Origin: an uncultured Erysipelotrichaceae bacterium
Lineage (GTDB): Bacteria; Bacillota_I; Bacilli_A; RF39; UBA660
DNA length: 64,000 nucleotides
Reading direction: 5' to 3'
Assembly: GCA_902785135.1 (NCBI GenBank)
Contig: CACZXL010000007.1
Coordinates: 6,016 to 70,015, forward strand
Positions 47,525 to 64,000 of this stretch are shown here, piece after piece (positions within the stretch are counted from its first letter, which is position 1; every line of letters starts with the position of its first letter). The translations under genes were made by a program, and so were the position numbers. The notes under the pieces are model-generated. The model was not told the origin of the DNA. It did no database searches and saw nothing but the letters and a program-made list of their open reading frames with translations.

Positions 47525-47527
47525 CAT

Positions 47528-47560
47528 AAAAAAAGTAACTGAATTTAATCAGTTACTTTT
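47528..47560. terminator. Bidirectional terminator between convergent genes
   Basis: aaaaaagtaactga-atttaa-tcagttacttttt, a perfect 9-bp stem flanked by A- and T-runs. Confidence 0.65.
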
Positions 47561-48254
47561 TAAATATTTTTTCAATGAATTTAATTATAATTTCGAATAT
47601 ATTTTTAGTATCTTTTTTATTAGATACTACTTTTTTTGCAATTTTTTCTTCTTTTTTAACTTCGTTAATCTCTTTGTTTTCAACAGCAGTTTCTACAACG
47701 CTCTCAGTTGTATCATTTTTTTCTTCAATTTCAGTATTTTCTGCTACTTCAACATAGTTTTCAACAGTATTTTGTTCATTTTTAACTTCAATATTTTTAG
47801 CATTAACATATAGTCCATTAACATTAGCACTTACTAATTCTGCATTAGCATCAACTAATTCAGGTTTTGTTAATGTAATTGAACTATTTCCTTCTCCGAT
47901 AGCTTTAAATGTTAAAGTATAAACATTAGTTCTTTCTTTGATACCATTTTCTAAAGAAAAATCCATAGCAGCAATTTTATTAATTCTGTTATTGATTATA
48001 ACTTCGTATGCATCACCTTGAGTAGTACTTACTAATTCTAATACAGTATTATCATAATTAATATAACCACCAAAAGCAACTACACCATTATTAGTACCAT
48101 CAATATTATCAAGTACCATGTTTACTGTGAATTCATCACCTACGTTAACATTAGTTTGTCCTTCAAATTTTACTGTTGAAACTCCAGCAGCATTAACTGT
48201 CATAGGTAAAGTAGCTAAACCTACTAAAGCTCCTATTAAATATCTTTTTTTCAT
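47553..48254 (-). CDS. Secreted protein with cohesin-like domain
   Basis: Signal peptide MKKRYLIGALVGLATLPMTVNA. The domain VKFEGQTNVNVGDEFTVNMVLDNIDG...GGYINYDNTVLELVS...YTLTFKAIGEGNSSITL follows a type-I cohesin sequence pattern. aaggggggaaatctt precedes the ATG at 48254. Confidence 0.5.
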   Translation of the reverse strand: MKKRYLIGALVGLATLPMTVNAAGVSTVKFEGQTNVNVGDEFTVNMVLDNIDGTNNGVVAFGGYINYDNTVLELVSTTQGDAYEVIINNRINKIAAMDFSLENGIKERTNVYTLTFKAIGEGNSSITLTKPELVDANAELVSANVNGLYVNAKNIEVKNEQNTVENYVEVAENTEIEEKNDTTESVVETAVENKEINEVKKEEKIAKKVVSNKKDTKNIFEIIIKFIEKIFKK

Positions 48255-48311
48255 AAGATTTCCCCCCTTTACTTTATGGCACAAACCCCTCGTTTCATAA
48301 AGTTGTGCGCT

Positions 48312-48340
48312 ATTATAACAAATTTCTTTAAATAATGCAA
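48312..48340 (-). promoter_or_regulatory. Sigma-A promoter for the cohesin-like gene (minus strand)
   Basis: Reverse complement reads TTGCAT, 17 nt, TGtTATAAT. A 5'-UTR hairpin gcacaac...gttgtgcc follows. Confidence 0.55.
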
Positions 48341-48677
48341 ATTTTTTTAAATTTTATCAATTCCTTTATTATATTAGTGTTCCCTTTATTTTATAAGGAA
48401 TACTTATAATTTTGTAAGAAATTGCATGTAAAATGATTGACAGATTTTCTTATTAATAATATAGGATAGTTCACTTTTTTAGTAAATATTTTTTTGATAA
48501 AAAAATAATATTAAAATGTGTAAAAAATCGTGTAAAATGTAAATTTTAATAAATTTTAATAATTTAAAAAGTGGTGGAAAAATGCATCACTTTTCCACAG
48601 CGTTTTCAGTTCTTTCAAACACCCGTTTTACCTTTATAAAATAAGGGAAAAATAGCAAAAAAATATGTCGTTTTTTG

Positions 48678-48707
48678 TTGACTTTTTTGACTGATTTTTG
48701 ATATAAT
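48678..48707 (+). promoter_or_regulatory. Sigma-A promoter for the giant ORF
   Basis: TTGACT at 48678-83, 18-nt spacer, TGaTATAAT at 48699-48707, about 130 nt upstream of the ATG at 48837. Confidence 0.55.
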
Positions 48708-48836: not shown

Positions 48837-51800
48837 ATGAAAAAATCTAGTAGGGTTAGATTATTACTTTTTGCATTAGTAGTATTTGTAATGCAATTAT
48901 TTGCTTTTAACGGAAAGGTAAAAGCAGAGTATGTTTCTTATGGTAAAACATACAATGAAGTATTTTACGTTGTTAATGGCGAACATTATAGGATGAAATT
49001 GTTTAAGAGCGATTTTGATCAATGTGGTAGCGCGGATCCAGATTATAAGAATTGGAAAAGCGTTTATATTTTTCCGTCACAACATACTTATGTCCATGGC
49101 TTAATGAATTGTATAAGAGATGTTGATGGTAACAGAGAAATACAGAAAGAAGCATTTATAGATGATCATACTGCTGTTGTTGGATGGTATAGTAACCCTG
49201 AATTAACTGGTAGTCCTATTAAATCGGCACCTTACGGACAAGATACTACTGTTTATGGTAAAACAGCACCAGCTATAACTATTTGGGTTGATGGTAAAAA
49301 AGTTAGTATGGTTAAAAATAAAACATATGACTTTGAATACATTAATTCATATAATAGATATGATAATGAAATTACATCTGAAAATAGTAAAATGACTATA
49401 GATGGTAAATATATTACTGCTATGGCTTATTGGACAAAAACAAAAGCACATGTAGATGCAAATGATAGAATTGATTTATATAGAAACGTGCATTTTTATA
49501 ATTCTCAATACTTTCCAGCTATTCATGAAATATTTAATATAAGAGGGCAAAATCCACAACTTTATAAGAGCCAAAATTCTGATAGAATCGATTATTATCA
49601 AGTACTACCAACATATTATGAAGTACTTGATTTGATAGATGAAGAAGGTAATTCATATAATTTTAAAAAAATTACTGCAACAGAAGATGTTGATGGTAAA
49701 CATTTTACAGTAATAACAAGTGATGAAATATGTGTTAAACATGGTTTATCAGGTCCTTTGAATGAACACGAAAAAGACCATCGTTTCCTTGGATATACTT
49801 TATTAGATACAGACTTAGAAGATTATGTTTATTATTCTGATGGTTATGTAAGACAAATAAATTCTTGTAATACACATGATTTTAATTTAAAAGCTCATTT
49901 TGATGGAATTAATCCTGGAGAACAAGTTAATATCGTTGAACTAAAAGGATATGGAGGTACAAGGGAAAAAGTATTAAGAGGATCAAAATATACTATTCCA
50001 ACTCCTCAAGAAAAAGCTCCTACTACATTTACAGTTACATTTGATTATCAAGATGGAGTTACACCTTCTTTAATTAAAACAGGAAAAGTAACATATACAC
50101 CAGTTGGCTATTCGTTAGATGGCGTTGTATATCCTGCTGGAACTAAAATTACTGTTGTTAAAAATATAGTTTTAGAACCAGTTTATAAAGAAACAATAAG
50201 TGATGTAGATTTTCCAACAGATCCTTCAAGACAATACTATACTTTTAAAGGATGGTTTGATCAAGGTGTTGGTGGAAGAGCAGTATCAAAAATAGAAGCT
50301 GTATCACAAAAATTATATGCTCAATGGGTTGAAAAAGATAAAGTAACAGTAATAAGACCTGATGGCGTATCTATAAATTTACAAAAAGGTACTGAATATA
50401 CACTACCATTTATTCCAAAGAAAAAACCTGCTATTTTAGCAACAGTACTTGCATATCATAACAATGAAACAGATGATTATGATTTATATTATGTTAAAAC
50501 TAATTATATAATTGGTGGATACAACATTAATAACAAACATTATGATGTTGGTGATACTATAGTTGTTAATGAAAATATAGATTTAAGACAACATTTGATT
50601 TATAACGAAGAAAGAGAAAATCCTACTTTTAAAGAATTAACAAGAGATGATTATACATTCTTAGGATACTATGATTCAGTAACAGGTGGTACAAAGTATA
50701 CTGAATATACCGGAACTACAAACAAAATATTATATGCACATTGGTCAAATGATAATAACAATGTAAAAATAACATATCCTGATGGAACGTTTGATAAAGT
50801 TTTAAAAGGTTCAAATTATACACTTAGAGATGGAATAGCAAAATCAGATGAATCAAAGACAGTAACATTTAAATATCAAGATGATTCTACAGCAGATTAT
50901 ATAACTTCTGTTAATAAACAATTTACTTCAAATGGATGGTATATAGATGGAATTCATTATGATGAAGGTCAAACTATAACTGCAGATAAAGATATGACTG
51001 TTGAATCAGATTATATAGAAACAATAATACCTGCTACTTTCCCAAGTAATCCTGTAAGAGTTGGTTACAATTTTAAAGGTTGGTATAATCAAGCATCTGG
51101 TGGAACTAAATATACAAGTTACAGTATATTTGATGATATAACACTTTATGCACAATGGACAACTTTATCTTATCAAGAAATGACTGTTACAGTACTTCCT
51201 GCTGGAACAGTTACAAAAGTAAGAAAAGGTTATTCTTATACATTACCTACATTACCAAGTAAAGATGATGATGAGTTAGCCACAGTAACTTTAAAATATC
51301 AAGATGGTTCTACAAAAGATAAAATAAAAAAAGTAACTAAATCTTATACAGTAGATAAATGGGATATATCAGGAGATACATATACAACTACAACTGCTGG
51401 AACAAGCATTAGAGTAAATAATAATCTTGTAATTAGTCCTATATATAAAGAAACTATTAATCCAGTAACATTTAAAGATGCTGAAAGAGAAGGTTATTTA
51501 TTTAGAGGATGGTATGATATTGAAGGTAATAGATATACTTATTATGATGGTATTGATGATATAACTCTATACGCTCATTGGGAAGAAACTGAGTTCCCTA
51601 TTGGTGTAGAATTTGAATTACCAGAACTTGATACAATAGACGATGAAGTATTATCAACAGTAACATTTAAATATAAAAATGATCATAGAGATACTACAAG
51701 TAATGTTGTTAGACAATATATTAAAAATGGTTGGATAGTAGATGGAAAATTATATCAACCTGGGGACAAAGTAACTTTAAAATATGATTCTATTATCAAA

Positions 51801-54800
51801 GAAGACTATACAGAAACTATTGTACCTGCAGAATTCCCAGAGGATCCAATAAAAGAAGGCAGTACATTCAAAGGATGGTTTGATAAAGAAACAAATGGTG
51901 GTAATAAATATACTACTTATGATGGTGAAGAAGATATTACTTTATATGCTAGATGGAAAAGAAATGGTACAGCAGAACCATATACTTTAGGTATAAATAA
52001 TACTCCAAAAGAAAGTATAGTGATTTCAACAAAAACATTCGTTTTACATAATGGTGAGGAAGATATAACAGTTAATATAATGGAAGACTTTGTTCCAAAT
52101 GGATGGTTAGTAGATGGTGAACCATATCCTGATGGAGCAACTATTATGAAATATCCAGATACTGTTATAAGACCAAATTATACAATATTTGTTAGAAATG
52201 CTGATTTTCCAGCAGATCCAGTTAAACCAGGATATAAATTTATTGGATGGTTCACTTCTGAAACTGGTGGATATCAAGTAACAATTTTAAATACTTATGA
52301 TTCTAATACATTACATGCACAATATACAGATAGTTTTGCATACTTAATTGATGGACCTTCATTTAATTCAAAAATATATTCTAAATACGCTAATGATTAT
52401 TCTTCAAGTTATTCATTTAGAAGAGCTACTTCAGAAGAATTGCAAGAAGTTATTAATACATTAGATTCAAGCAATGTTATTTCTACTAATGATTCTCCAG
52501 TTCCAGTATATTTTTGGAGAACAGGATCAACAATTCTAGTAGGATCAACTGCAGATACAATATATTTTAATCCGGATTCTTCATTTATGTTCTCTACAAA
52601 AGAAAATGAAAGAAACACTTCTGCAGCAAGAGAATATTATTCATCGATTGATTTAAGCAAATTCAATAGTTCAATAGTTACAAATATGAAAGGTATGTTT
52701 GCATATCAAAATAATGCAACAACAATCAACTTAAGAAATTTTAATACAAGTAGAGTAACAGATATGTCTTGGTTATTTTATGCAACATCATCTTTAAGTA
52801 CAGTAGATGTAACTTCATTTGATACTCATAATGTTACAACAATGAAAAATATGTTTGGTGCTGGTAGATTTACAAGCTTAAATGTAACTAGATTTGATAC
52901 AAGTAATGTAACAGATATGTCATACATGTTTGAAAATAACTTGTTGACAGATCCATTAAATTTAAGCAGATTTGATACTAGTAAAGTTACTAATATGAGT
53001 TACATGCTTTCATCAATAGGATATGTTCCAAGTATAGATGTTTCAAGTTTTGATACAAGTAATGTAACAGACATGTCAAATATGTTCTCTAGTACACCTT
53101 GGGTTACAACTTTAAATTTAGGAAGCTTTGATACAAGTAGTGTAGAAAATGCAAATAATATGTTCTATAATACTGGTTCAAATAAATTAACAACAATTTA
53201 TGTTTCTGAAAAATGGAATTTAAGTGATCTTCCAAGTAATCAAAGAATATTCTTTAATAATAATCAACTAGTTGGACAAAAAGGAACAGTATATGATGGT
53301 CATGATTATAAGGATTATGCGATTATAGACGACGCTCCTAATAATCCGGGTTATTTAACACATGTTAAAAATATAAAACCAATACCAGAAGGTACTCATA
53401 CAGTTAGTCTTCCTGATTATACTGAAGAAGTAGATCATGGATCAACTTATGATATTCCAAATAATAGATATCCAAAAGAAAACGAGGATGTCGCTAAAGT
53501 AACATTTAAATATGGAAATGGTCATGAAGATACAACAAGTAAAGTTCAAAAACAATTTATAGGTAATGGATTTACAATTGATGGGGTTCATTATGATGAT
53601 GGTGGATCTATTGTTGTAGTAAAGGATATTGCTTTAATACCTGATTATACTGAAGTTAATTTAGGTGCAGAGTTCCCAGAAGATCCTTCAAATAATCAAT
53701 TTGAATTTATTGGATGGTTTGATCATGAATTTGGTGGTACTCAATATACAAATTATGCTGGTAATGAAGATATTACTTTATATGCTCAATGGAAAGTAAA
53801 TGTTGCTCCTATACCAGGACAAGATTATGTATTACCTACAAATAATTATCTTAAAGAAGATGAAATATTAGGAACAGTAACATTTAAATACCATAATGGC
53901 ACTGCTGATACAACAAGTACTGTTATTAAACAATATATTAATCATGGTTGGTTGGTAAATGGAGATTATTATAACGATGGTGATGTTATTAATGTTGTAG
54001 AAGGTGTTGATTATATAATTGAACCTAATTATATAGTTAAGACTATTCAAGCTGAATATCCAGAAAATCCTAGTAAAGATGGTTATGAATTTGCTGGATG
54101 GTATACTGAAGAAACTGGTGGTAAATTAGTATCTGCTTATAGTGGAGAAACAGATATAACATTACATGCTCAATATTCTGATGATTATGCATTATTAGAT
54201 TTAGGTGGTAATGTAAATACTAAGTTAAAGAGTTTATGTAATAGTTATACTGGATTAAATGATTTATCATTTAGAAAAGCAACTCAAGATGAATATAATC
54301 TAGTATCTAGTTCTTTAACTGATGATAATAAAATTTCTTCTAGTGATTCACCTAAAACAGTATATGCATGGTTAAGTGGAGATGAAGTAATATATTATTC
54401 TGATGCAGATATTATCTATGCAAAACCAAATTCTATCTGGATGTTTAAAGAGACAACTTTTAAAACAATAGATATATCTGGTATAAATACAACAAAGGTT
54501 ACTGATCTAGGTTATTTCTTCGAAGAATGTCATTCGTTAGAAGAGATAATTGGTTTAGATACTTTATATACTCATAATGTTAAAGGAATGGCATATATGT
54601 TCCATAACACTACTAGTTTAAAAACTGTAGATTTAAGTCATTTTGATACAAGTAAAGTTACAGGCTTTCATAGTATGTTCTCAGGTAGTGCTGTAACAAA
54701 ACTAGATTTAAGAAGTTTTGATATAAGTTCTGCTACTAGAATAGATAGAATGTTCCAATCAACTCGAAGTCTTAAAGAACTTGATATAACTAGTTTTGAT

Positions 54801-57800
54801 ACAAGTAATATAACTAATATGGAAGGCACGTTTGCATATACTGCTTTAGATGAAATTGATTTAAGTCATTTTGATACAAGTAAAGTAAATAATGTTAGAG
54901 CAATGTTTTCTAATGTTGAGGCTACAACTATTTATGTATCTGAAAAATGGGGTCTAAGTAATTCAATTGATGATTATAGATTATTCTGGAGAGCTTATAA
55001 CCTTGTTGGACAAAAAGGAACAGTATATGATGAAGGACAAATTGATAGAGCTTATGCAATTATAGACGATGCTCCAGAACATCCAGGATATTTAACTTAT
55101 AGAAAAGCACCAGGTTCACCTGATACATATTCTGTAGTTTATCCTGATGGAAGAGTATTTAATGTAGTAGCTGGTGGAACTCATACATTATTAGAAAATA
55201 ATTATCCTAAAGAAGATAGTAAGTTAGCAACAGTAACATTTAAATACTATAATGGTCACGAAGATACTCAAAGTTATGTAATGAGAAATTATACTCCTAA
55301 TGGTTGGTTAGTAGAAGGAACTCATTATGGTAATGGACAAAATATAACTGTTAATAGTGATATATTATTGGAACCAGATTATACTAATGCAACTATTAAA
55401 GCAGAATTCCCAGAAAATCCAACTGCTGAAAATTTAAAATTTAAAGGTTGGTATTCAGCAGCTTCTGGTGGTTCAAAATATTCATCATATTATAACCTTT
55501 ATGATATTACATTACATGCTCAATGGGATAGTACAACAAATCCAATGCCAGGTAGTCCTTATACATTGCCAACAAATAATACTACTAAGGCTAGTGAAAA
55601 TGTAGCTAGTGTATTATTTAAATATCAAAATGGTAAAGAAGATACAGTTAGTTATGTTAAAAAGAACTTTAAACCAAATGGATGGTTAGTAGATGGAGTT
55701 CATAAGAATACTGGTGAAATAATAAATGTTACTGAAGATACAGTTATTGAACCAGATTATACAATTACTTATTCATCTGCTTCATTCCCAGCAAATCCTA
55801 CAAGAACTGGATATACATTTATGGGATGGTTCGATGCAGAATTTGGTGGTAATATTTATAGTAGAACTACTGGATATAAAGAACCTAGAAATATTACTTT
55901 ATATGCTCATTGGAGTAAAACAGGTAATACTTATACTTTACCTTTGAATGAAGAAACAAAAGAAAGTGAAGTAGTATCTCTTGTAACGTTTAAATACCAT
56001 AATGGAGAAGCAGATACTTATGGACAAGTAATTAGAAAATATGTTCCAAATGGATGGCTTGTAAATGGTGTTCATAAAGAAACTGGAGAAAATATTACAA
56101 AGACTGACCAAACTATTATAGAACCAGACTTTAGAGAAGTTATTGTACCAGTAGAGTTACCTAAAAATCCTACTAAAACCGATTATTTGTTTGAAGGTTG
56201 GTATGATGCAGAAACTGGTGGAAATAAAATTGTAGTTTATAAAGGAACAGAAAATATTACATTGCATGCTCACTATACTAATAATTATGCAATTTTAACA
56301 ACTGGACCTTTATTCCATAATAAGGTGGTAGAATTAACATCATCATATACTTCTTCAGCACAATTTACATTTAGAAAAGCAACTGAATCAGAGTATAACG
56401 AAGTAGCTGAAACATTAACAAATGCTAATATTATTTCAGCTAGAACATCTCCAAATGTAGCTTATATGTGGACATCTGGAAACTTAATTCTATATTATTC
56501 ACCTGTAGATATAATATTTATGAATGAAGATAGTTCTTCAATGTTCTTTGTAGCTAATAGTAATACGCAATTTAATAAATTTTTATCTATAGATATGACT
56601 GGATTAAACTCAAGTAGAGTTAGAAGTATGCATGCTTTATTTAAGGCAGAATCCAATAGTGGTATAACTACATCTATTGATTTAACAAATTTTGATACTC
56701 ACAATGTTACTGATATGTATGGAATGTTTTCTGGTTTAAATAAGATTACATCAATAGATACAAGTTCATTTGATACAAGAAAAGTAAAAGATATGTCCGG
56801 AATGTTTGATAATTGTAGTAAGATTACATCATTAGATTTGAGTCATTTTGATACAAGTAATGTTACAAATATGACAAATATGTTCGGCTCATGTTATAGT
56901 TTAACATATTTGAATGTATCAAATTTTGACACAAGTAAAGTAAAAAAATTTGACTATATGTTTGCAGGTTGTAGAGCATTAACAGAAATAGATGTTAGAA
57001 GCTTTAATACTGAAGGGGTAACTAGTGAATATGAATCTGGTTATGCAAGTATGTTCGGAAATATGTCGTCTATAACTGAACTAGATTTAACATCATTCTC
57101 TGGTGGAGTAGGAAATATGGTTAGCATGTTTTCTGGTTGTAGTAATTTAGTAACAATATATGTTTCAGAAAAATGGGAAGAACCTAGAAGTGAATATTTT
57201 GAAGGAAGAACATTCGAGAGTGATACAAAACTAGTTGGACAAAAAGGAACAACATATGATGCAAATCACGTTGATTCAGAATATGCTAGAGTAGATGAAG
57301 GCCCATCTAGACCTGGATATTTAACATTTAAAGGATTGATAGGTACTCATAAAGTTACTCTTCCTAACAGAGTTGAGGAAGTTAAACATGGTGGAAGTTT
57401 CGTAATACCTAAAAATACAATTTCTAAAGCAAGTGAAGATTTAGCAACAGTAACATTTAAATATGGAAATGGACAAGATGATACAACTAGTAAAGTTCAA
57501 AAACAATATGTACCTAATGGTTGGTCTATTGAAGGATTGCCTTATTCAGATAATGAAGTGATAATAGTTTTAGAAGATATTACTATTGATGCTGAATATT
57601 CAGAAATACAAGTTGGAGCAACTTATCCATCAACTCCTTATAAAGAAGGATATGCATTTGTTGGATGGTATACAGAAGAAACTGGAGGAGAAAGAGTAGA
57701 TTCATATAATGAATTAAATGATATAACATTATATGCTCATTGGACTCTAGATCCGCCAGAACCAAATCAACCATATGTATTACCTTTAAATGATAATGCT

Positions 57801-60800
57801 AAAGCAAGTGAAGACTTAGCAGAAGTAACATTTAAATTTAATAATGGTGACGTAGATTATATTGGTTATGTTACAAAAGTATATACACCAAATGGATGGC
57901 TTGTTGATGGTACTCATTATAATTCAGGAGATACTATTAATATTGGAGATACTATTCCTGAAATAATACCTGATTATACTGAAGTGATAAAAGGTGTTAC
58001 ATTCCCAACTGATCCTAAGAGAGTAGGTTTATACTTTGATGGTTGGTATGATGCTAAAGTTGGAGGAACTAAATATACTTCATATGAAGAAACAAATGAT
58101 ATTACTTTATATGCTAGATATACTGATCAAGGTGATTATGGTAAATATAAATTACCAATTAATAATGAAACTAAACCTTCAAAAATTATTTCAACAGTAA
58201 CATTTAAATATCATAATGGACAAGAAGATACTACTGCTAATGTAGTAAGAAGATATGAACCAAACGGATGGTTAGTAGATGGTGTCTATCATGGTAATGG
58301 TGAATATATAAAGAAAAATGATAATACTGTAATAGTACCAAGTTTTGCAGAATTTATCGATCAAGTTATATTCCCAGCTACACCTACAAAGAATGGAAGT
58401 TCATTTGTAGGATGGTATACAGCAGAAACTGGTGGAGACCATGTTACAACTTATAAAGGTACAATTGATATTACATTACATGCACAATATACTGAAAGTT
58501 ATTCAATATTAGTACCAGGTACTACTTTCCGTAATATTGTAGCTAATAAAACATTAGGTCAATTTACTGAAGCAACTCGTAATAATAATATATATTTCAG
58601 AAAAGCAAACCAATCTGAATATAATGCAGTTTCAGCAAATCTAACATCAGATAATATTATATCTACTTCAGATTCACCATATGTTACTTATATTTGGTTT
58701 AATGAAAGTAATGATGAAGTATTATATTATTCTGAGGCAGATGTAATATATGCAAACCCTGATTCGTCATATATGTTCTCACCAATAAATAAATGGGACC
58801 ATAATAATTTCTCATATAATATAATAGATTTATCTGGAATAAACTTTAATAAGGCTACTACTTTCTATTATATGTTCTATACATATTATTCTAGAGATTA
58901 TTTAAAAGAAATAATTTTTGGTGACATAGATACAAGTAATGTAACAAATATGTCTGGTATGTTCTTACATAATACAGGAATAAGGAACTTAGATGTAAGT
59001 AAGTTTAATACAGGTAATGTAACGAATATGTCTACTATGTTTGGTTCTTTAACTTCAATTGAAGAATTAGACGTAAGTAATTTTGATACTCATAATGTTA
59101 TTAATATGAATGGTTTATTTTCCGTTATGGAAAAGTTATCAGAGTTAGATTTAAGTAATTTTGACACAAGAAAAGTAACAAATATGGGATCTATGTTTTC
59201 TCAGTGTAAATCTTTAGATTATTTAGATGTAAGCATGCTTAATACACATAATGTAACAGATATGTCTTATATGTTTAGTGGTATGCTTGCTCTTAGAAAA
59301 CTTGATTTAGGTTCATTCGATACATCTAATGTAACGACTATGTACTCCATGTTTCAAAGTGATATGGTATTACGATATGTAAATCTATCTTCATTTGATA
59401 CATCTAAAGTAACAAATATGCAGCAAATGTTTGATGGAACTGGTTTAATGGAAATAGATGTAACAAGTTTTAATACTAGTAATGTAACAAATATGCAACA
59501 TATGTTTAATAATAGTGATTTCCTTAAAAGAATTGTAGGATTATCTTCATTCGATACTAGTAACGTAACAAGTATGCAAGGAATGCTTGCTTGGAATTCT
59601 TCTCTTGAATATGTAGATATTTCTAATTTTACATTTGATAGTATATCTGGTAATGGTGTTTATGGTTTATTTGAACGCGATGAAAATCTTAAAGAAGTTG
59701 TTTTTGGTGATATAAAATTCAATAATCCTTCATCAATGGCATTTATGTTTGATGATGATAGATCATTAGTAAGAATATCATATAATTCTATTGATACAAG
59801 CAATGTTAATAATATGGAGTATTTATTTGCATATTGTGAATCGCTAAATGATTTCTCTATGGTTACTGAATTTGATACATCTAATGTAACAAGAATGAAT
59901 GATATGTTCCTTGGAGTTTCAGTAACAACATTAGATTTAAGTAATTTTGATACAAGAAATGTAACAAGTATGAATGGTATGTTTGCTGGTTCTTGGGCAA
60001 GTGCTCCTAATAGAAATCTAAGGACAATATATGTTTCTGATTTCTGGGATACAAGCAAAGTTACAAATGGATCATCTATGTTTCAATATTCATCTAGTCT
60101 TGTTGGAGAAAAAGGAACTACATTTGATTCAAATCACATAGATGTTGATTATGCACATGTAGATGGTGGTACTTCTAATCCAGGATACTTAACTTATAAG
60201 AAGTCAGGTTATAACGTTACACTTCCAGATAGAGTAGATCATGTTAAAGCTGGTGACGAATATACAATTCCTTTAAATGATTACTTTAAAGATGATGAAA
60301 CATTATCTACAGTAACATTTAAATATCAAAACGGACAAGATGATACAACAAGTAATGTAGTTAAAAAATATGTTCCAAAAGAATGGAAGATAGAAGACGA
60401 AGATTATGAAAATAGAGAAGTAATAAAAGTATATAAAGATATTGTTTTACTTCCACAATATGAAGAAGAATTATTTGAAGCTGAATTCCCAGCTGATCCA
60501 ACAAAAGATAATTATATATTTGATGGATGGCATACTTCTGCTACTGGTGGAACTAGATACTTCAATTATGCTGGGGATAGTAATTTAACTTTATATGCTC
60601 ACTGGGCTAAACCAGATGATAAATTCTTTGATTTAACTTATTGCGATTTAGATGGAGAATGCGAAACAACTAGAGTAACTAATGGTACTAAAGTTAAATT
60701 AGCTAAACAATCTGCTTCTAAGGAATTATTATTATATCTAGATTATCAAGATGAAAATCCTAGAAGACAATATAAAGCTACATATAAAAAGGAATCAAGT

Positions 60801-63800
60801 AGTTTCTTAGTAAATGATAAATCATATAATGTTGATGATGTAGTAACAATTACTGAAGATACTACAATAGTTCCAGAAGTTAAAATAATAGAATCTAAAT
60901 CTACAATTGCAGAACCTACTAAAGAAGGTCAAAAGTTTATAGGTTGGTATACTGATGCTTCTGCTGGAAGTCAAATAGATATTGACTCTATAACATATGA
61001 TCAATTTGATACTTATAATGGTAATACTTTATATGCTCATTATGTAGAAGTAGGAACAAATCAAGTAGTAGTAGATTTTGATGGTGATATAAGAGTAGTT
61101 AATAAGGGAACTACAGAAAATCTTCCATCTACTAAGAATAAAGATAGTGATTCATTTATAATTCATTGGATTGATAGTCATGGAAGTAACTATAATTCAA
61201 CTATTACAAATAGTTACTCATTAGATAAGTTCTTAGTAAATGGAGAAGAAAAAGAAAAAGGAGCGTCAGTAACTTATAATGAAGATACTGTAATTAGATC
61301 TCAATACACAACTACTAGAAGTTATGATTCTAATACTACAAGTACTTATAGTATTAGTTATCCAAATTTATTACCAAATAATAATGAAGACTTCTTAGGA
61401 TGGTTTGTATTAGATGATGAAATAGATGATGTTTCTGATATTAATACTGAAACTAATATCTACGCTCACTATGTTGAAAAGATTAATTTAGATGTAGATG
61501 GTAAAGTTTCTAAAGTAAATAAAGGAACAGTTTATACTGTACCAACAAGTACTGTTAATGAATCTATTACTATCACATTAGATCAAAATTATGTAGGAGC
61601 ACCATCTCCAGTAGATTATACAATTACTACTTCTAATGAATTAGAATATCAAACTATTAATGGAGTAGTATACTTCCCAGGAGATGAAATAACTCTTAAT
61701 GAAGATACAGTAGTTGTAAGTACTGCTTCAGAAGAAGAAACAACTATTGAACCAGCATATACTAAACCAGAAAGAACTGGATATATATTCAAAGGTTGGT
61801 TACATAATAATGAAGAAGTATTTATAGAAAATATTACTGGTAGAACTACTTCACTAGATAATGAAACATTAACTGGTGATTGGGAAGAATTTAATTCTGA
61901 AACTAACGCAATATTACATGTAACTGGTAAATTTACATATGATATTCAAGTTACTAAAGGATCAGAATTAGAAATTATAGATTTTGCTAAAGATACTAAT
62001 GCAAGTATTAAATTAGTAGATAACGATAATAACAAAGAATATAATGTTACTTTAACAACTAATTATATGCCAACATCAGGAACATTTAATGGTACTCCAG
62101 TAAGTTCTGATAGTTCTATAGTTGTTAATGAAGAATCAACATTAGAATTAGAATATTTAGATGTTAATACAAGAGTATATGATATAGAATATCCAGAGTA
62201 CTTAGAAGAAGAACCTCCAGTAGAAATAACTAATAATACATATGTAGGTATTTATGAAGAAGATTCTACTGATTCAAATAGAATAGATTACTTAAGTCTA
62301 AGCGCAGAAAGTGATATAGATGGAAATACATACTATATTAAATATCTAAATCCTGATCAAGGATATGTATTAGTAACATTAGATGGAAATGCTTATGTAG
62401 TGCCTAAAGGACCTGGTAAATTACCTGGACCTACTACTAAAACAAGTGATGAATATACAATAACATTTGATTATAATAGATCATCTGGTAGAAAAGAAGA
62501 AAGAAAGATTATAAAGAGTTATCAATATGATAAATTCTATGTAACAGTACCAGAAGAAAGTTCTAATACATCTGGAAATTACCAATCAGAAGCAAACTTT
62601 AACTATGATACAAATACAGTTATTGATAGTTTATTCACTTATACAATTACTTATCCAGAAATACCTGAAGTAAATTCAGAAAACTTCTTAGGATGGTATA
62701 CTAAACCAAACGGAGGAGAATTAGTTACTTCTCTAGAAGGTAAAGTAGAAGATTATACATTATATGCTAGATATGATAATCAAATAATGAATATAACATT
62801 AGATGAAACAGTTTATACAGTTCCATATGGTGATGAATTTGAATTCCCAGCTGGACCAAGTAAAACTAGTGAATCAATAACACTTCATCTACATGATAAT
62901 TATGGTGAAGATAATGTTAATGACTATGTTATAAGTAAAGATTATACATTTAAATCTTATATAATAGATGGAGTAGAATATAATGCTGGTGATAAATTAA
63001 TAATCACTGAAGATAAATTAGGTCATTCTACATATACTGAATCTAAATCTACAAATGATGAATCATTATTAAGACCAGAAAGAGATAATTACTTATTCGC
63101 TGGATGGGAAGATTCAGAACATAATAGAGTAAATGTTTCATCATTAACCGCTGATGATACAGAATATGATGAAAAAGATTTATATGCTAAATGGGAAGAA
63201 GATAATGGAGATAATATTACTATTGATTATGATGGAGAAATAATAGTTGTTCCAAGTGGAACATATACACCATCAAGATTAACTAGTGAATATGAAAGTC
63301 CGTTAAAACCAAAAGATGAAATAATGACTGTAACAGTTGATTGGAATGGCGCAGAAGGTCATGATTCACCAACTAAACAAGTTGTTATTAAGAAAAATTG
63401 GATTCTTTCTAAGTTAATAATTAATGAAGATGAACTAATTGATTATGATAATACAGAATATGTATTTAATTTTGATACTAAAGTTCAAGGAGTATTTGAT
63501 AAGACTTATGAAGGTGATATTACTACTGAAGGTGGAGATAACTCAGAAGGTATTTATACTGAACCAGTAGGAGGAACTAAAATTGAGTCTAATGATCAAG
63601 TAACTGATGGTGCATATTATTATGTTCATTATAGAAATAGTTATAGTATCTATATAAATAATGAATTCTATGAATCTGTTAATGCAGGAAGGTATACTTT
63701 ACCAGTTAATACAGTTCCTAAGAACATGGATAATATCGCAACTATTACATATGATTATCAAGATGGTAGAGATAATACATACGGTTATGTTAGAAGAAAA

Positions 63801-64000
63801 TATACTCCAAACGGATGGAAGATTGGTAGTACATTCTATATCAATAATGCAATAATAAATGTTAATTCAGATAGATATTTAGTATCTCAATATACAGATT
63901 CTATTAATGGAGTAACAGAACTTCCAAATCCTACTAGAAAAGGATATAGATTTGATGGTTGGTATACTAATACTGAATATACTGAAAAGGTAACTTCATA
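48837..64000 (+). CDS. Giant secreted multi-repeat surface protein, 3'-truncated by the window edge (at least 5,054 codons). It has a signal peptide and an N-terminal unique domain. It then alternates about 20 Listeria-Bacteroides-type (Flg_new/InlB B-repeat-like) repeats with 4 DUF285-type LRR modules
   Basis: ATG at 48837 after ggaagtttagagg; signal peptide MKKSSRVRLLLFALVVFVMQLFAFNGKVKA. I translated long stretches in frame 0 (48837-52320, 52314-53350, 56271-56760, 60598-64000) and found no stop. ~75-aa repeats end in (F/Y)xGW(Y/F)xxxTGGxKYTxYxGxxDITLYAxW. Modules at about 52.3-53.35 kb, 54.17-55.09 kb, 56.27-57.31 kb and 58.49-60.19 kb carry 6-10 tandem FDTSNVTNMSxMF-type ~24-aa units and end IYVSEKW...LVGQKGTVYD...IDDAPxxPGYLTYK. 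The ORF track omits it because no stop lies in the window. Confidence 0.85.
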   Translation, partial: MKKSSRVRLLLFALVVFVMQLFAFNGKVKAEYVSYGKTYNEVFYVVNGEHYRMKLFKSDFDQCGSADPDYKNWKSVYIFPSQHTYVHGLMNCIRDVDGNREIQKEAFIDDHTAVVGWYSNPELTGSPIKSAPYGQDTTVYGKTAPAITIWVDGKKVSMVKNKTYDFEYINSYNRYDNEITSENSKMTIDGKYITAMAYWTKTKAHVDANDRIDLYRNVHFYNSQYFPAIHEIFNIRGQNPQLYKSQNSDRIDYYQVLPTYYEVLDLIDEEGNSYNFKKITATEDVDGKHFTVITSDEICVKHGLSGPLNEHEKDHRFLGYTLLDTDLEDYVYYSDGYVRQINSCNTHDFNLKAHFDGINPGEQVNIVELKGYGGTREKVLRGSKYTIPTPQEKAPTTFTVTFDYQDGVTPSLIKTGKVTYTPVGYSLDGVVYPAGTKITVVKNIVLEPVYKETISDVDFPTDPSRQYYTFKGWFDQGVGGRAVSKIEAVSQKLYAQWVEKDKVTVIRPDGVSINLQKGTEYTLPFIPKKKPAILATVLAYHNNETDDYDLYYVKTNYIIGGYNINNKHYDVGDTIVVNENIDLRQHLIYNEERENPTFKELTRDDYTFLGYYDSVTGGTKYTEYTGTTNKILYAHWSNDNNNVKITYPDGTFDKVLKGSNYTLRDGIAKSDESKTVTFKYQDDSTADYITSVNKQFTSNGWYIDGIHYDEGQTITADKDMTVESDYIETIIPATFPSNPVRVGYNFKGWYNQASGGTKYTSYSIFDDITLYAQWTTLSYQEMTVTVLPAGTVTKVRKGYSYTLPTLPSKDDDELATVTLKYQDGSTKDKIKKVTKSYTVDKWDISGDTYTTTTAGTSIRVNNNLVISPIYKETINPVTFKDAEREGYLFRGWYDIEGNRYTYYDGIDDITLYAHWEETEFPIGVEFELPELDTIDDEVLSTVTFKYKNDHRDTTSNVVRQYIKNGWIVDGKLYQPGDKVTLKYDSIIKEDYTETIVPAEFPEDPIKEGSTFKGWFDKETNGGNKYTTYDGEEDITLYARWKRNGTAEPYTLGINNTPKESIVISTKTFVLHNGEEDITVNIMEDFVPNGWLVDGEPYPDGATIMKYPDTVIRPNYTIFVRNADFPADPVKPGYKFIGWFTSETGGYQVTILNTYDSNTLHAQYTDSFAYLIDGPSFNSKIYSKYANDYSSSYSFRRATSEELQEVINTLDSSNVISTNDSPVPVYFWRTGSTILVGSTADTIYFNPDSSFMFSTKENERNTSAAREYYSSIDLSKFNSSIVTNMKGMFAYQNNATTINLRNFNTSRVTDMSWLFYATSSLSTVDVTSFDTHNVTTMKNMFGAGRFTSLNVTRFDTSNVTDMSYMFENNLLTDPLNLSRFDTSKVTNMSYMLSSIGYVPSIDVSSFDTSNVTDMSNMFSSTPWVTTLNLGSFDTSSVENANNMFYNTGSNKLTTIYVSEKWNLSDLPSNQRIFFNNNQLVGQKGTVYDGHDYKDYAIIDDAPNNPGYLTHVKNIKPIPEGTHTVSLPDYTEEVDHGSTYDIPNNRYPKENEDVAKVTFKYGNGHEDTTSKVQKQFIGNGFTIDGVHYDDGGSIVVVKDIALIPDYTEVNLGAEFPEDPSNNQFEFIGWFDHEFGGTQYTNYAGNEDITLYAQWKVNVAPIPGQDYVLPTNNYLKEDEILGTVTFKYHNGTADTTSTVIKQYINHGWLVNGDYYNDGDVINVVEGVDYIIEPNYIVKTIQAEYPENPSKDGYEFAGWYTEETGGKLVSAYSGETDITLHAQYSDDYALLDLGGNVNTKLKSLCNSYTGLNDLSFRKATQDEYNLVSSSLTDDNKISSSDSPKTVYAWLSGDEVIYYSDADIIYAKPNSIWMFKETTFKTIDISGINTTKVTDLGYFFEECHSLEEIIGLDTLYTHNVKGMAYMFHNTTSLKTVDLSHFDTSKVTGFHSMFSGSAVTKLDLRSFDISSATRIDRMFQSTRSLKELDITSFDTSNITNMEGTFAYTALDEIDLSHFDTSKVNNVRAMFSNVEATTIYVSEKWGLSNSIDDYRLFWRAYNLVGQKGTVYDEGQIDRAYAIIDDAPEHPGYLTYRKAPGSPDTYSVVYPDGRVFNVVAGGTHTLLENNYPKEDSKLATVTFKYYNGHEDTQSYVMRNYTPNGWLVEGTHYGNGQNITVNSDILLEPDYTNATIKAEFPENPTAENLKFKGWYSAASGGSKYSSYYNLYDITLHAQWDSTTNPMPGSPYTLPTNNTTKASENVASVLFKYQNGKEDTVSYVKKNFKPNGWLVDGVHKNTGEIINVTEDTVIEPDYTITYSSASFPANPTRTGYTFMGWFDAEFGGNIYSRTTGYKEPRNITLYAHWSKTGNTYTLPLNEETKESEVVSLVTFKYHNGEADTYGQVIRKYVPNGWLVNGVHKETGENITKTDQTIIEPDFREVIVPVELPKNPTKTDYLFEGWYDAETGGNKIVVYKGTENITLHAHYTNNYAILTTGPLFHNKVVELTSSYTSSAQFTFRKATESEYNEVAETLTNANIISARTSPNVAYMWTSGNLILYYSPVDIIFMNEDSSSMFFVANSNTQFNKFLSIDMTGLNSSRVRSMHALFKAESNSGITTSIDLTNFDTHNVTDMYGMFSGLNKITSIDTSSFDTRKVKDMSGMFDNCSKITSLDLSHFDTSNVTNMTNMFGSCYSLTYLNVSNFDTSKVKKFDYMFAGCRALTEIDVRSFNTEGVTSEYESGYASMFGNMSSITELDLTSFSGGVGNMVSMFSGCSNLVTIYVSEKWEEPRSEYFEGRTFESDTKLVGQKGTTYDANHVDSEYARVDEGPSRPGYLTFKGLIGTHKVTLPNRVEEVKHGGSFVIPKNTISKASEDLATVTFKYGNGQDDTTSKVQKQYVPNGWSIEGLPYSDNEVIIVLEDITIDAEYSEIQVGATYPSTPYKEGYAFVGWYTEETGGERVDSYNELNDITLYAHWTLDPPEPNQPYVLPLNDNAKASEDLAEVTFKFNNGDVDYIGYVTKVYTPNGWLVDGTHYNSGDTINIGDTIPEIIPDYTEVIKGVTFPTDPKRVGLYFDGWYDAKVGGTKYTSYEETNDITLYARYTDQGDYGKYKLPINNETKPSKIISTVTFKYHNGQEDTTANVVRRYEPNGWLVDGVYHGNGEYIKKNDNTVIVPSFAEFIDQVIFPATPTKNGSSFVGWYTAETGGDHVTTYKGTIDITLHAQYTESYSILVPGTTFRNIVANKTLGQFTEATRNNNIYFRKANQSEYNAVSANLTSDNIISTSDSPYVTYIWFNESNDEVLYYSEADVIYANPDSSYMFSPINKWDHNNFSYNIIDLSGINFNKATTFYYMFYTYYSRDYLKEIIFGDIDTSNVTNMSGMFLHNTGIRNLDVSKFNTGNVTNMSTMFGSLTSIEELDVSNFDTHNVINMNGLFSVMEKLSELDLSNFDTRKVTNMGSMFSQCKSLDYLDVSMLNTHNVTDMSYMFSGMLALRKLDLGSFDTSNVTTMYSMFQSDMVLRYVNLSSFDTSKVTNMQQMFDGTGLMEIDVTSFNTSNVTNMQHMFNNSDFLKRIVGLSSFDTSNVTSMQGMLAWNSSLEYVDISNFTFDSISGNGVYGLFERDENLKEVVFGDIKFNNPSSMAFMFDDDRSLVRISYNSIDTSNVNNMEYLFAYCESLNDFSMVTEFDTSNVTRMNDMFLGVSVTTLDLSNFDTRNVTSMNGMFAGSWASAPNRNLRTIYVSDFWDTSKVTNGSSMFQYSSSLVGEKGTTFDSNHIDVDYAHVDGGTSNPGYLTYKKSGYNVTLPDRVDHVKAGDEYTIPLNDYFKDDETLSTVTFKYQNGQDDTTSNVVKKYVPKEWKIEDEDYENREVIKVYKDIVLLPQYEEELFEAEFPADPTKDNYIFDGWHTSATGGTRYFNYAGDSNLTLYAHWAKPDDKFFDLTYCDLDGECETTRVTNGTKVKLAKQSASKELLLYLDYQDENPRRQYKATYKKESSSFLVNDKSYNVDDVVTITEDTTIVPEVKIIESKSTIAEPTKEGQKFIGWYTDASAGSQIDIDSITYDQFDTYNGNTLYAHYVEVGTNQVVVDFDGDIRVVNKGTTENLPSTKNKDSDSFIIHWIDSHGSNYNSTITNSYSLDKFLVNGEEKEKGASVTYNEDTVIRSQYTTTRSYDSNTTSTYSISYPNLLPNNNEDFLGWFVLDDEIDDVSDINTETNIYAHYVEKINLDVDGKVSKVNKGTVYTVPTSTVNESITITLDQNYVGAPSPVDYTITTSNELEYQTINGVVYFPGDEITLNEDTVVVSTASEEETTIEPAYTKPERTGYIFKGWLHNNEEVFIENITGRTTSLDNETLTGDWEEFNSETNAILHVTGKFTYDIQVTKGSELEIIDFAKDTNASIKLVDNDNNKEYNVTLTTNYMPTSGTFNGTPVSSDSSIVVNEESTLELEYLDVNTRVYDIEYPEYLEEEPPVEITNNTYVGIYEEDSTDSNRIDYLSLSAESDIDGNTYYIKYLNPDQGYVLVTLDGNAYVVPKGPGKLPGPTTKTSDEYTITFDYNRSSGRKEERKIIKSYQYDKFYVTVPEESSNTSGNYQSEANFNYDTNTVIDSLFTYTITYPEIPEVNSENFLGWYTKPNGGELVTSLEGKVEDYTLYARYDNQIMNITLDETVYTVPYGDEFEFPAGPSKTSESITLHLHDNYGEDNVNDYVISKDYTFKSYIIDGVEYNAGDKLIITEDKLGHSTYTESKSTNDESLLRPERDNYLFAGWEDSEHNRVNVSSLTADDTEYDEKDLYAKWEEDNGDNITIDYDGEIIVVPSGTYTPSRLTSEYESPLKPKDEIMTVTVDWNGAEGHDSPTKQVVIKKNWILSKLIINEDELIDYDNTEYVFNFDTKVQGVFDKTYEGDITTEGGDNSEGIYTEPVGGTKIESNDQVTDGAYYYVHYRNSYSIYINNEFYESVNAGRYTLPVNTVPKNMDNIATITYDYQDGRDNTYGYVRRKYTPNGWKIGSTFYINNAIINVNSDRYLVSQYTDSINGVTELPNPTRKGYRFDGWYTNTEYTEKVTS

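What the first reader, a model, noticed from the sequence alone, without database searches (positions are those of the whole stretch)
47553..48360. Cohesin-like secreted protein transcribed divergently from the giant surface protein
The 233-aa mature protein has a signal peptide and a ~140-aa domain whose sequence pattern matches type-I cohesins. A cohesin next to a huge extracellular repeat protein suggests a cohesin-dockerin-like anchoring or assembly pair, possibly with a dockerin on a partner outside the window. It has its own strong promoter (TTGCAT, 17 nt, TGtTATAAT on the minus strand) and a 5'-UTR hairpin.
Basis: partly seen in the sequence, partly recalled or inferred. Interest (0 to 1): 0.6.

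Follow-up and report, generated by a model that had tools for sequence, protein, structure and literature searches.

The report
Cohesin socket for giant dockerin-tipped proteins
A small secreted protein with one cohesin module sits head-to-head with a 6,989-residue surface protein whose end, outside the window, carries the matching dockerin, so this uncultured gut/rumen bacterium probably uses the cellulosome's plug-and-socket pair to hold giant adhesin-like proteins rather than enzymes.

Summary
Window 47553-48254 (-) encodes a 233-aa precursor, not a mature protein. It has a signal peptide, one cohesin module, a disordered charged linker and a conserved amphipathic C-terminal helix. The cohesin module scores 31.3 bits against Pfam PF00963 (cut-off 24.1). 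Its AlphaFold model has pLDDT >90, and the 15 best PDB matches are all cohesins.

The 5'-UTR hairpin is only weakly supported.

I recovered the source contig, which is identical to the window over 25,164 nt. The giant protein is 6,989 aa and ends in Big_2, an X module and a dockerin. The next two proteins (2,288 and 646 aa) end the same way. Relatives show the same pairing.

Between two strains that are about 97.5% identical in DNA, divergence concentrates in the cohesin's C-terminal half and in the X module.

It is not a cellulosome, because no enzymes are involved. The cohesin protein has no SLH or sortase anchor. Binding itself, and the tail's role as a membrane anchor, are inferred and not shown. 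"Type I" is not established.

Verdict: a new variant of a known kind, of moderate interest.

The parts
47553..48254 (-). Gene for the 233-aa cohesin protein (precursor), including the stop codon
   Evidence: ORF list and sequence. Pfam Cohesin at 31.3 bits, above the 24.1 cut-off. 78 homologues of 186-280 aa with the same architecture.
48189..48254 (-). Signal peptide, residues 1-22 (MKKRYLIGALVGLATLPMTVNA|AG). It contains no lipobox cysteine.
   Evidence: Read from the sequence. Conserved across the family. pLDDT below 50 for residues 1-18. No predictor was run.
47790..48185 (-). Cohesin module, residues about 24-155
   Evidence: Pfam. AF2 pLDDT >90, all beta-strand. The top 15 PDB matches are all cohesins. 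Allelic differences are concentrated at residues 85-103 and 127-149.
47613..47789 (-). Disordered linker rich in Glu and Lys, residues about 156-214
   Evidence: pLDDT about 29. Variable in length and sequence across the family, but 98% identical between the two close strains.
47556..47612 (-). Conserved cationic amphipathic C-terminal helix (KNIFEIIIKFIEKIFKK), the proposed membrane-surface anchor
   Evidence: Predicted helix at residues 216-232. Hydrophobic moment 0.66 here and 0.4-0.76 across the family. Aromatic residues are conserved. The anchoring role is an inference.
48312..48340 (-). Promoter of the cohesin gene: TTGCAT, 17 nt, TGtTATAAT
   Evidence: Sequence, consensus scan, and invariance of TTG and TGnTATAAT in 12 loci.
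48271..48303 (-). 5'-UTR stem-loop (ACUUUAUG...CAUAAAGU) just downstream of the inferred transcription start
   Evidence: Fold of -10.5 kcal/mol with z=-0.9, which is not significant on its own. Conserved in the closer relatives, with a few compensatory changes.
47530..47561 (.). Bidirectional intrinsic terminator shared with the convergent gene for the 667-aa ORF (called as 664 aa in the contig gene tables)
   Evidence: 13-bp stem followed by a T-run on both strands. Fold z=-5.1; 0 of 200 shuffles fold as well.
48837..64000 (+). First 5,054 codons of the 6,989-aa surface protein. It has a signal peptide and Flg_new and DUF285 repeats. Its Big_2, X module and dockerin end lies about 5.8 kb past the window end.
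   Evidence: No stop codon in the frame. Pfam Flg_new in 19 stretches and DUF285 in 12. Full length from P0089 and L047, identical to the window. Dockerin at residues 6912-6988.
48678..48707 (+). Promoter-like site for the giant gene (TTGACT, 18 nt, TATAAT preceded by TG)
   Evidence: Best consensus match in the region, 11 of 12 positions. Its conservation was not tested.

Best explanation
The gene encodes the 'socket' of a non-cellulosomal cohesin-dockerin attachment system in an uncultured, very AT-rich (25.8% GC), spore-forming gut/rumen member of the Bacilli.

The protein is exported by the Sec pathway. It consists of one cohesin module, a roughly 60-residue flexible charged linker and a short cationic amphipathic C-terminal helix.

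The divergently transcribed 6,989-aa protein, and the 2,288-aa and 646-aa proteins that follow it, are adhesin-like repeat proteins (Listeria-Bacteroides repeats plus DUF285). Each ends in a Big_2 domain, an X module and a dockerin, which together form the 'plug'.

Proposed mechanism: after export, the calcium-loaded dockerin, buttressed by its X module, binds the cohesin. The cohesin protein is held at the outer face of the membrane by its amphipathic tail and reaches outwards on its linker. This tethers the giant proteins to the cell.

Shown: the domain identities, the gene arrangement, its conservation in relatives, and the co-located divergence hot spots. Inferred: the binding itself, which cohesin is the partner, and the tail's role as an anchor.
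For: - Cohesin identity rests on sequence and predicted fold.
- The giant protein was recovered in full and ends in a dockerin. Its first calcium loop, DIDQDGYVDISD, is canonical.
- Two more dockerin-tipped proteins lie downstream in the same contig.
- The same pairing occurs in relatives. In L002/L003 (cohesin 86% identical) the 2,287-aa and 646-aa neighbours end in the dockerin. In the P0061 lineage (cohesin 46% identical) the 7,121-aa neighbour ends in it.
- 13 of the 20 best representatives of giant-protein relatives end in this dockerin. The other seven show no dockerin and mostly end within repeat sequence, so they may be truncated; one ends in a possible membrane helix.
- The dockerin is 93.6% identical between proteins whose bodies are about 24-40% identical.
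- Between two strains about 97.5% identical in DNA, the local divergence hot spots are cohesin residues 85-103 and 127-149 and the X module of the dockerin protein (20 and 9 mismatches per 90 nt against a median of 1).
- A profile of the X-dockerin ends matches 21 solved dockerin chains, down to E=4e-17.
- The tail is a strongly amphipathic, conserved helix.
Against:
- Pfam Dockerin_1 does not reach its cut-off for this dockerin type. There is no hit for the giant protein's own end, and 14.8-15.5 bits against a 22.9 cut-off for its paralogues.
- The second calcium loop carries a 6-residue acidic insertion.
- The AF2 model of the X-dockerin end was poor, with pLDDT 50.
- Relatives also encode a second cohesin carrier of about 705-742 aa with a membrane helix, at the far end of such clusters. 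This could be the true partner.
- Some proteins with this dockerin lie at loci with no cohesin within 10 kb.
- The cohesin protein has no SLH, LPXTG or lipobox, so its retention on a walled cell is unproven.
- The co-variation rests on a single pair of strains. Gene conversion from the inserted giant gene could also explain it.
Confidence: 0.65

Rival explanations
1. The system is a cohesin-dockerin system, but with the partners swapped. The dockerin on the giant proteins binds the ~720-aa membrane-spanning cohesin protein encoded at the other end of the cluster. The small cohesin binds a different dockerin, for example the canonical one on the Cadherin-like proteins, or none of the neighbours.
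For: Relatives have two cohesin carriers and two dockerin types in one cluster (L022, L030, L031, L014, L048). The source contig has a 2,083-aa Cadherin-like protein after the dockerin proteins, and its C-terminus is unseen. A true transmembrane helix is a more obvious anchor for a 7,000-aa protein.
Against: In five loci the membrane cohesin directly follows the protein carrying the other (Pfam-positive) dockerin type, which suggests that those two form a pair. The small cohesin is divergently paired with the Flg_new/DUF285 giants in three lineages. The divergence hot spots lie in the small cohesin and in this dockerin's X module.
Confidence: 0.15
2. The small cohesin does bind the dockerins, but it is not an anchor. 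It would be a released or loosely associated connector or cap. For example, its C-terminal helix could make it oligomerise and so bundle several giant proteins, or it could mask free dockerins.
For: There is no recognised wall or membrane anchor: Pfam finds only the Cohesin domain, and there is no LPXTG, SLH or lipobox in the sequence. One monovalent cohesin faces at least three dockerin proteins. A short amphipathic helix could equally form a coiled coil. The promoter is strong and conserved, which would suit an abundant protein.
Against: The tail is cationic and follows a lysine-rich stretch, as in helices that bind membrane surfaces. The long linker fits a spacer that reaches out from the membrane. 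Known monovalent cohesin proteins are anchors.
Confidence: 0.15
3. The cohesin-like module is only a beta-sandwich with some other ligand, such as a carbohydrate or a host molecule, and its position next to dockerin-tipped proteins has no functional meaning.
For: Sequence identity to solved cohesins is only 14-20%. A profile of the family finds no PDB chain by sequence. Many non-cellulosomal cohesin-like modules have no known partner (own knowledge).
Against: The Pfam hit is above the cut-off. The 15 best fold matches are exclusively cohesins. The module recurs next to dockerin proteins in lineages that have diverged to 37-46% identity. The dockerin is far more conserved than the protein bodies.
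Confidence: 0.05

Closest known systems
Ruminococcus flavefaciens / R. champanellensis ScaE (CohE) with the X-module-dockerin of ScaB and CttA
   Same: A small protein with a single cohesin holds large proteins at the cell surface through a C-terminal X module plus dockerin. The X module stabilises the dockerin (PMC7456326). In R. flavefaciens many dockerin proteins are non-enzymatic, including 28 leucine-rich-repeat modules (PMC2930009). 5n5p, a R. flavefaciens ScaB cohesin, is the second-best fold match.
   Different: CohE is linked covalently to peptidoglycan by a sortase signal (PMC7456326). The protein here has no LPXTG and ends in an amphipathic helix. There is no scaffoldin and there are no enzymes. 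The cargo is a 6,989-aa repeat protein. Sequence identity is only about 16%.
Clostridium thermocellum monovalent anchoring proteins OlpC and OlpA (one cohesin plus SLH repeats)
   Same: A single cohesin on a small secreted protein docks type-I-like dockerins at the cell surface. The OlpC cohesin (4dh2) is among the best fold matches, and its partner dockerin 4dh2_B matches the dockerin type found here.
   Different: Those proteins are anchored by SLH modules and dock cellulosomal enzymes (own knowledge). No SLH is present here.
Non-cellulosomal cohesin-dockerin pairs: Clostridium perfringens glycoside-hydrolase toxin complexes and the Archaeoglobus fulgidus cohesin
   Same: The same two modules are used outside cellulose degradation. 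2xdh (A. fulgidus) is the best fold match, and 2jh2, 2w1n and 2vo8 (C. perfringens) are close behind.
   Different: In C. perfringens both modules sit on enzymes and join them to each other (own knowledge). Here the cohesin is on a dedicated small carrier, and the dockerins are on giant proteins of adhesin type.
C-terminal amphipathic-helix anchors of low-molecular-weight penicillin-binding proteins (E. coli PBP5/PBP6)
   Same: An exported soluble domain is held on the outer face of the cytoplasmic membrane by a short C-terminal amphipathic helix (own knowledge). This is the model proposed for the tail here.
   Different: There is no homology; the resemblance is only one of principle. The role of the tail here is untested.

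Membership tests
Cohesin domain (Pfam PF00963) | Profile score above the curated gathering cut-off | tested here: met
   31.3 bits against 24.1, E=2.7e-7, residues 28-142 matching profile positions 3-127 of 139.
Cohesin domain (Pfam PF00963) | Nine-stranded beta-sandwich (jelly-roll) fold like solved cohesins | tested here: met
   AF2 pLDDT >90 over residues 21-155, all beta-strand with no helix. Foldseek ranks 1-15 are all cohesins, with target-normalised TM-scores mostly 0.7-0.8 in the top 12. Strand topology was not inspected in coordinates.
Cohesin domain (Pfam PF00963) | Calcium-dependent binding of a dockerin | not testable with these tools
   Only genomic support is available: an adjacent dockerin protein in three lineages and co-located divergence hot spots.
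Type I cohesin specifically | Groups with type I cohesins rather than with type II, type III or non-cellulosomal ones | tested here: inconclusive
   The best fold matches mix non-cellulosomal (2xdh, 2jh2), type III (5n5p) and type I (4dh2, 3kcp) cohesins at 14-20% identity. The model lacks the extra helix of type II. No phylogeny was made.
Dockerin (Pfam PF00404), for the end of the giant protein | Profile score above the gathering cut-off | tested here: not met
   No hit for the giant protein's own last 250 aa. The 646-aa paralogue and P0079 score 14.8-15.5 bits against a 22.9 cut-off. The second dockerin type in relatives does pass, at 33 bits.
Dockerin (Pfam PF00404), for the end of the giant protein | Two tandem segments, each a 12-residue EF-hand-like calcium loop followed by a helix | tested here: met
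   Segment 1 is DIDQDGYVDISD plus a helix. Segment 2 is AADVDI...MIDISD plus a helix, with a 6-residue acidic insertion in the loop. In family members without the insertion, both loops are 12 residues long.
Dockerin (Pfam PF00404), for the end of the giant protein | Sequence similarity to solved dockerins | tested here: met
   The giant protein's last 160 aa match 8x3a_A/8x39_A at E=3e-5 over the whole dockerin. P0079 matches 8x39 at 1e-9, R. bromii Amy16 at 1e-4 and ScaB dockerin 4uyq at 3e-4. The profile matches 21 solved dockerin chains.
Dockerin (Pfam PF00404), for the end of the giant protein | Dockerin fold | tested here: inconclusive
   AF2 on a 10-sequence alignment gave pLDDT below 50 for the dockerin part. 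Two helices were predicted at the expected places.
Anchoring scaffoldin (ScaE, OlpC, SdbA type) | Cohesin joined to a wall-anchoring module (SLH repeats or an LPXTG sortase signal) | tested here: not met
   Pfam finds only the Cohesin domain. The C-terminus is KNIFEIIIKFIEKIFKK, with no LPXTG, no hydrophobic span and no SLH.
Cellulosome | Dockerins carried by carbohydrate-active enzymes that assemble on a multi-cohesin scaffoldin | tested here: not met
   The cohesin protein has a single cohesin. The dockerin proteins that were scanned carry Flg_new, DUF285 and Big_2 and no glycoside-hydrolase domain. Only part of the genome was seen.

The most novel reading that the evidence does not exclude
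The locus is a swappable surface-display system. A constant, membrane-surface-anchored cohesin, held by a previously undescribed amphipathic-tail anchor, accepts interchangeable giant adhesins that share only a conserved X-module-dockerin plug. Whole 21-kb adhesin genes can therefore be gained or lost between strains, while socket and plug co-evolve in matched alleles. A second, orthogonal pair (membrane cohesin plus canonical dockerin) works alongside it.
Probability: 0.3. Interest if true: 0.65.

Novelty: new variant of a known kind. Interest (0 to 1): 0.5.

Why it matters
Cohesin-dockerin pairs are best known for assembling enzyme complexes, and their use outside cellulosomes is poorly documented experimentally.

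Here an uncultured, abundant gut/rumen lineage appears to use the pair to mount proteins of 2,000-7,500 residues on its surface. These proteins look like adhesins. The socket protein lacks every known anchoring module.

If this is confirmed, it would:
- explain how these giant proteins, which have no sortase signal or membrane helix, stay on the cell;
- provide a second natural example, after ScaE-CttA, of adhesion through an X-dockerin;
- supply a new short anchoring tail and possibly two orthogonal cohesin-dockerin pairs for protein engineering.

The strain-level gain or loss of a 21-kb adhesin gene next to a constant socket also suggests a simple route to surface variation.

Tried and rejected
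- Regex and a home-made dockerin HMM over all six frames of the window found no dockerin inside the 64 kb. The partner therefore had to be sought outside the window.
- A word-indexed protein search with the last 500 aa of the giant protein visible in the window returned nothing at 1e-20. That search was wasted.
- An exact-match DNA search for the window's last 80 nt in JGI metagenomes found no match.
- AF2 of the X-dockerin end alone was too poor to use for a fold search (pLDDT 50).
- Rfam found no known RNA family in 47300-49000.
- NCBIfam and Pfam gave nothing for the conserved convergent neighbours of 667 aa and 214 aa.
- An HMM of the C-terminal tail found it only on the cohesin family itself. 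There is therefore no evidence that it is a general sorting signal.
- Wall-less host: considered because related MAGs are labelled Tenericutes. Rejected because the window has SpoIVA, YunB, DapF and UppS.
- Lipoprotein: rejected because the signal peptide contains no cysteine.
Full report
**1. The observation**

Window 47553-48254 on the minus strand is an open frame of 233 codons. The ATG is at 48254, preceded by a G-rich ribosome-binding site. The TTG start 10 codons upstream in the mechanical ORF list is not needed.

The product begins MKKRYLIGALVGLATLPMTVNA|AG. This is a typical Sec signal peptide with no lipobox cysteine, so 233 aa is the precursor and about 211 aa the mature protein. I read this from the sequence and ran no signal-peptide predictor.

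Pfam's Cohesin model scores 31.3 bits (cut-off 24.1, E=2.7e-7) over residues 28-142.

A search of 5.8 billion proteins gave 78 relatives of 186-280 aa. Where named, all come from uncultured "Bacilli", "Firmicutes" or "Tenericutes" bins, several of them from ruminant forestomach samples. They share one architecture:
- a signal peptide;
- a conserved module of about 135 aa;
- a charged linker that varies in length and sequence;
- a short conserved tail of the form ..N(I/L)(F/L)..(I/V)..FF..I(F/I)K..

**2. Fold**

AlphaFold2 on a 42-sequence alignment gives pLDDT >90 for about residues 21-155, all beta-strand. The linker (160-214) is disordered, with pLDDT about 29. Residues 216-232 form a helix.

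In Foldseek against the PDB, ranks 1-15 are all cohesins. They include the A. fulgidus non-cellulosomal cohesin 2xdh, R. flavefaciens ScaB Coh5 (5n5p), C. thermocellum OlpC (4dh2), C. perfringens cohesins and R. bromii Sca5. E-values run from 8e-10 to 6.5e-5, and for the top 12 the target-normalised TM-score is mostly 0.7-0.8.

Identity is 14-20% to all of them, so the module is a cohesin but cannot be called type I. A sequence profile of the family finds no PDB chain.

**3. Expression signals**

In DNA this AT-rich, consensus matches are common: 19 were found against 11.8 expected. However, the TTG and the TGnTATAAT are invariant in an alignment of 12 loci whose cohesin proteins are only 34-100% identical. 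That is good evidence for a real promoter.

The 5'-UTR stem-loop (48271-48303) is no more stable than shuffled sequence (z=-0.9). It is kept in the closer relatives with a few compensatory changes. I consider it plausible but weak. Rfam has nothing there.

A strong bidirectional terminator at 47530-47561 is shared with the convergent gene.

**4. The neighbour and the missing dockerin**

From 48837 a frame with a signal peptide runs to the window end, 5,054 codons with no stop. It contains 19 Flg_new (Listeria-Bacteroides) stretches and 12 DUF285 stretches. It has no enzyme domain and no dockerin. No dockerin exists anywhere in the window in any frame.

Relatives gave the first lead. In L002/L003 (cohesin 86% identical), the adjacent 2,287-aa and 646-aa proteins end in ...RGDIDQDGYVDISD...AADI...DISDN...YILG...NE. 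In L014 a 1,997+-aa neighbour ends in a dockerin that passes Pfam at 33 bits.

A full HMMER scan of 1.84 billion representatives with the giant protein's first 1,200 aa then returned P0089. P0089 is 6,989 aa and identical to every one of the 5,054 residues visible in the window.

Its contig, ENA ERZ28613674 scaffold_74 (152 kb, locus L047), is identical to window 38837-64000 over 25,164 nt. It is therefore the source of the window.

The giant protein ends in three modules:
- Big_2, at 25.4 bits in Pfam;
- an X module of about 75 aa;
- a dockerin at residues 6912-6988.

The dockerin's first loop, DIDQDGYVDISD, is a canonical 12-residue calcium loop. The second loop carries a 6-residue acidic insertion. 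The last 160 aa match the solved double dockerin 8x3a/8x39 at E=3e-5 over the full dockerin. Insertion-free family members match several solved dockerins, and a profile of these ends matches 21 solved dockerin chains.

Pfam's own Dockerin_1 model does not reach its cut-off for this subtype. The AF2 model of the end was too poor to use. I therefore call it a dockerin on sequence grounds. It does not meet the curated Pfam threshold.

**5. Extent of the system**

In the source contig the order is:
- cohesin gene (minus strand);
- 6,989-aa gene;
- 2,288-aa gene;
- 646-aa gene;
- a gene for a 2,083-aa Cadherin-like protein whose end is unseen.

The first three large proteins all carry the X-dockerin end.

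In the lineage of cohesin P0061 (46% identical to the window's), the 7,121-aa neighbour also ends in this dockerin. It is followed by a 5,012-aa dockerin protein, then an 1,846-aa Cadherin-like protein with the canonical dockerin type, and then a 721-aa protein made of a signal peptide, a cohesin, a membrane helix and a charged tail. The same tail-end pair, canonical dockerin protein followed directly by a ~705-742-aa cohesin protein, is seen in L014, L022, L030 and L031.

So these bacteria have two cohesin carriers and two dockerin types.

Of the 20 best representatives of giant-protein relatives, 13 end in the first dockerin type. The other seven show no dockerin and mostly end within repeat sequence, so they may be truncated; one ends in a possible membrane helix. 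More distant Flg_new proteins use LPXTG or membrane helices instead.

Some proteins with this dockerin lie at loci with no cohesin nearby. The same is true of cellulosomal dockerin genes.

**6. Evidence that socket and plug are matched**

The dockerin of the 6,989-aa protein is 93.6% identical to that of the L002 2,287-aa protein, and the X module is 77% identical. The protein bodies are only about 24-40% identical.

L002 and the source contig are 97.5-97.9% identical in DNA on both sides of a 21.25-kb segment that holds the giant gene and is present only in the window's strain.

Within this near-identical background there are two local divergence hot spots:
- In the cohesin gene, residues about 81-160 show 21, 8, 15 and 14 mismatches per 60 nt, against 0-3 elsewhere. 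The amino-acid changes cluster at 85-103 and 127-149, and three alleles vary in these same patches.
- In the dockerin gene, the X module shows 20 and 9 mismatches per 90 nt, against a median of 1.

In the window's strain, the 6,989-aa and 2,288-aa proteins have identical X-dockerin ends from the conserved GRIIIG motif to within the last five residues, which differ at three positions.

This is what matched alleles of two interacting surfaces would look like. It also recalls the X-module contacts of type II/III complexes. But it rests on a single strain pair, and gene conversion from the inserted gene is an alternative explanation.

**7. How the cohesin protein is held**

The host is a walled spore-former. 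The window carries SpoIVA, YunB, DapF and undecaprenyl-diphosphate synthase.

The cohesin protein has no SLH, LPXTG, LysM or lipobox. Its only candidate anchor is the tail KNIFEIIIKFIEKIFKK. This is a predicted helix with hydrophobic moment 0.66, preceded by a lysine-rich stretch, and it is conserved across the family.

By analogy with the C-terminal amphipathic anchors of PBP5/6 (own knowledge), I propose that the tail lies on the outer face of the membrane and that the ~60-residue linker acts as a spacer. This step is inference only, and I give it about 0.4 on its own. The tail is found only on this family within the sequences I hold.

**8. Comparison with known systems**

In function, the closest system is the ScaE (CohE) / X-dockerin pair of ruminococci. 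There a monovalent, peptidoglycan-linked cohesin holds ScaB and the adhesion protein CttA, and the X module stabilises the dockerin (PMC7456326).

R. flavefaciens also puts dockerins on many non-enzymatic proteins, including 28 leucine-rich-repeat modules (PMC2930009). A preprint has noted in passing that giant gut Clostridia proteins carry Listeria-Bacteroides repeats, dockerin repeats and LRRs (10.1101/2023.11.21.568195).

The system here differs in five ways:
- no enzymes and no scaffoldin, so it is not a cellulosome;
- no sortase or SLH anchor on the cohesin carrier;
- cargo of up to about 7,000 residues;
- a Bacilli lineage with no cultured member;
- an apparent second, orthogonal pair.

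I found no paper describing this arrangement in the library searched. Most subscription-journal papers are not in that library.

**9. Verdict**

| Claim | Confidence |
|---|---|
| This is a secreted cohesin protein | ~0.95 |
| The adjacent giant protein ends in a dockerin | ~0.9 |
| The two bind each other | ~0.65-0.7 |
| The tail is the anchor | ~0.4 |

It is a new variant of a known kind, of moderate interest.

Noticed in passing
L047 9896-31148, which corresponds to window ~48732 onward and continues beyond the window end: A 21.25-kb segment carrying the whole 6,989-aa gene is present in the window's strain. In strain L002 it is replaced by about 215 bp, while the flanks are 97.5-97.9% identical. 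In L002 a different signal-peptide-coding start is fused to the body of the 2,288-aa gene. This is a strain-level gain or loss of a giant surface-protein gene.
   Followed up: partly
window 47808-48000 (cohesin residues ~85-149); L047 ~37575-37755 (X module of the 2,288-aa gene): Divergence hot spots occur in the cohesin's C-terminal half and in the X module, in strains that are otherwise ~98-99% identical. The cohesin's disordered linker and tail are 98% and 95% identical between these strains, whereas the folded cohesin module is only 79% identical.
   Followed up: partly
L014 6013-8238; L022 16763-18877; L030 17301-19481; L031 5601-7289; L048 30705-32867: A second cohesin carrier of about 705-742 aa (signal peptide, cohesin, membrane helix, charged tail) always lies directly after a Cadherin-like protein that ends in a canonical, Pfam-positive dockerin. 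This is probably a second, orthogonal cohesin-dockerin pair.
   Followed up: partly
window 44872-45516 and 45521-47524 (+): A 214-aa protein (membrane helix, Lys/Glu-rich linker, small globular end) and a ~664-aa coiled-coil protein without a signal peptide lie convergent with the cohesin gene. This holds in every relative with at least 44% cohesin identity. Neither has a Pfam or NCBIfam match, and their function is unknown.
   Followed up: partly
window 48574-48598 (-): A palindrome with an 11-bp stem (GTGGAAAAGTGATGCATTTTTCCAC) lies between the two divergent promoters. It is terminator-like, but nothing is obviously transcribed into it. It could be an operator or an insulator.
   Followed up: no
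window 12424-13893, 2655-3272, 19911-20738, 18285-19004: SpoIVA, YunB, diaminopimelate epimerase and undecaprenyl-diphosphate synthase are present. The organism is therefore a walled spore-former with 25.8% GC, although several related bins are labelled Tenericutes.
   Followed up: partly
L012 10894-11346; L022 10521-11120; L010 18156-18578: Small membrane-anchored proteins ending in ...IYPK(S/E)PYGK.D..I...L.C recur inside or beside the cohesin/dockerin clusters of relatives. None was found in the window.
   Followed up: no
L004 7019-9120; L006 8864-9796; L048 8798-9631: ORF6N or KilA-N domain genes, which are typical of mobile elements, are inserted between the cohesin gene and the giant gene, or between giant genes, in some relatives.
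   Followed up: no
window 42221-43783 (+): A 520-aa protein has an N-terminal Cro/C1-type HTH domain and a long C-terminal part with no match. It is conserved in synteny upstream of the cohesin cluster, together with a DUF2752 protein.
   Followed up: no
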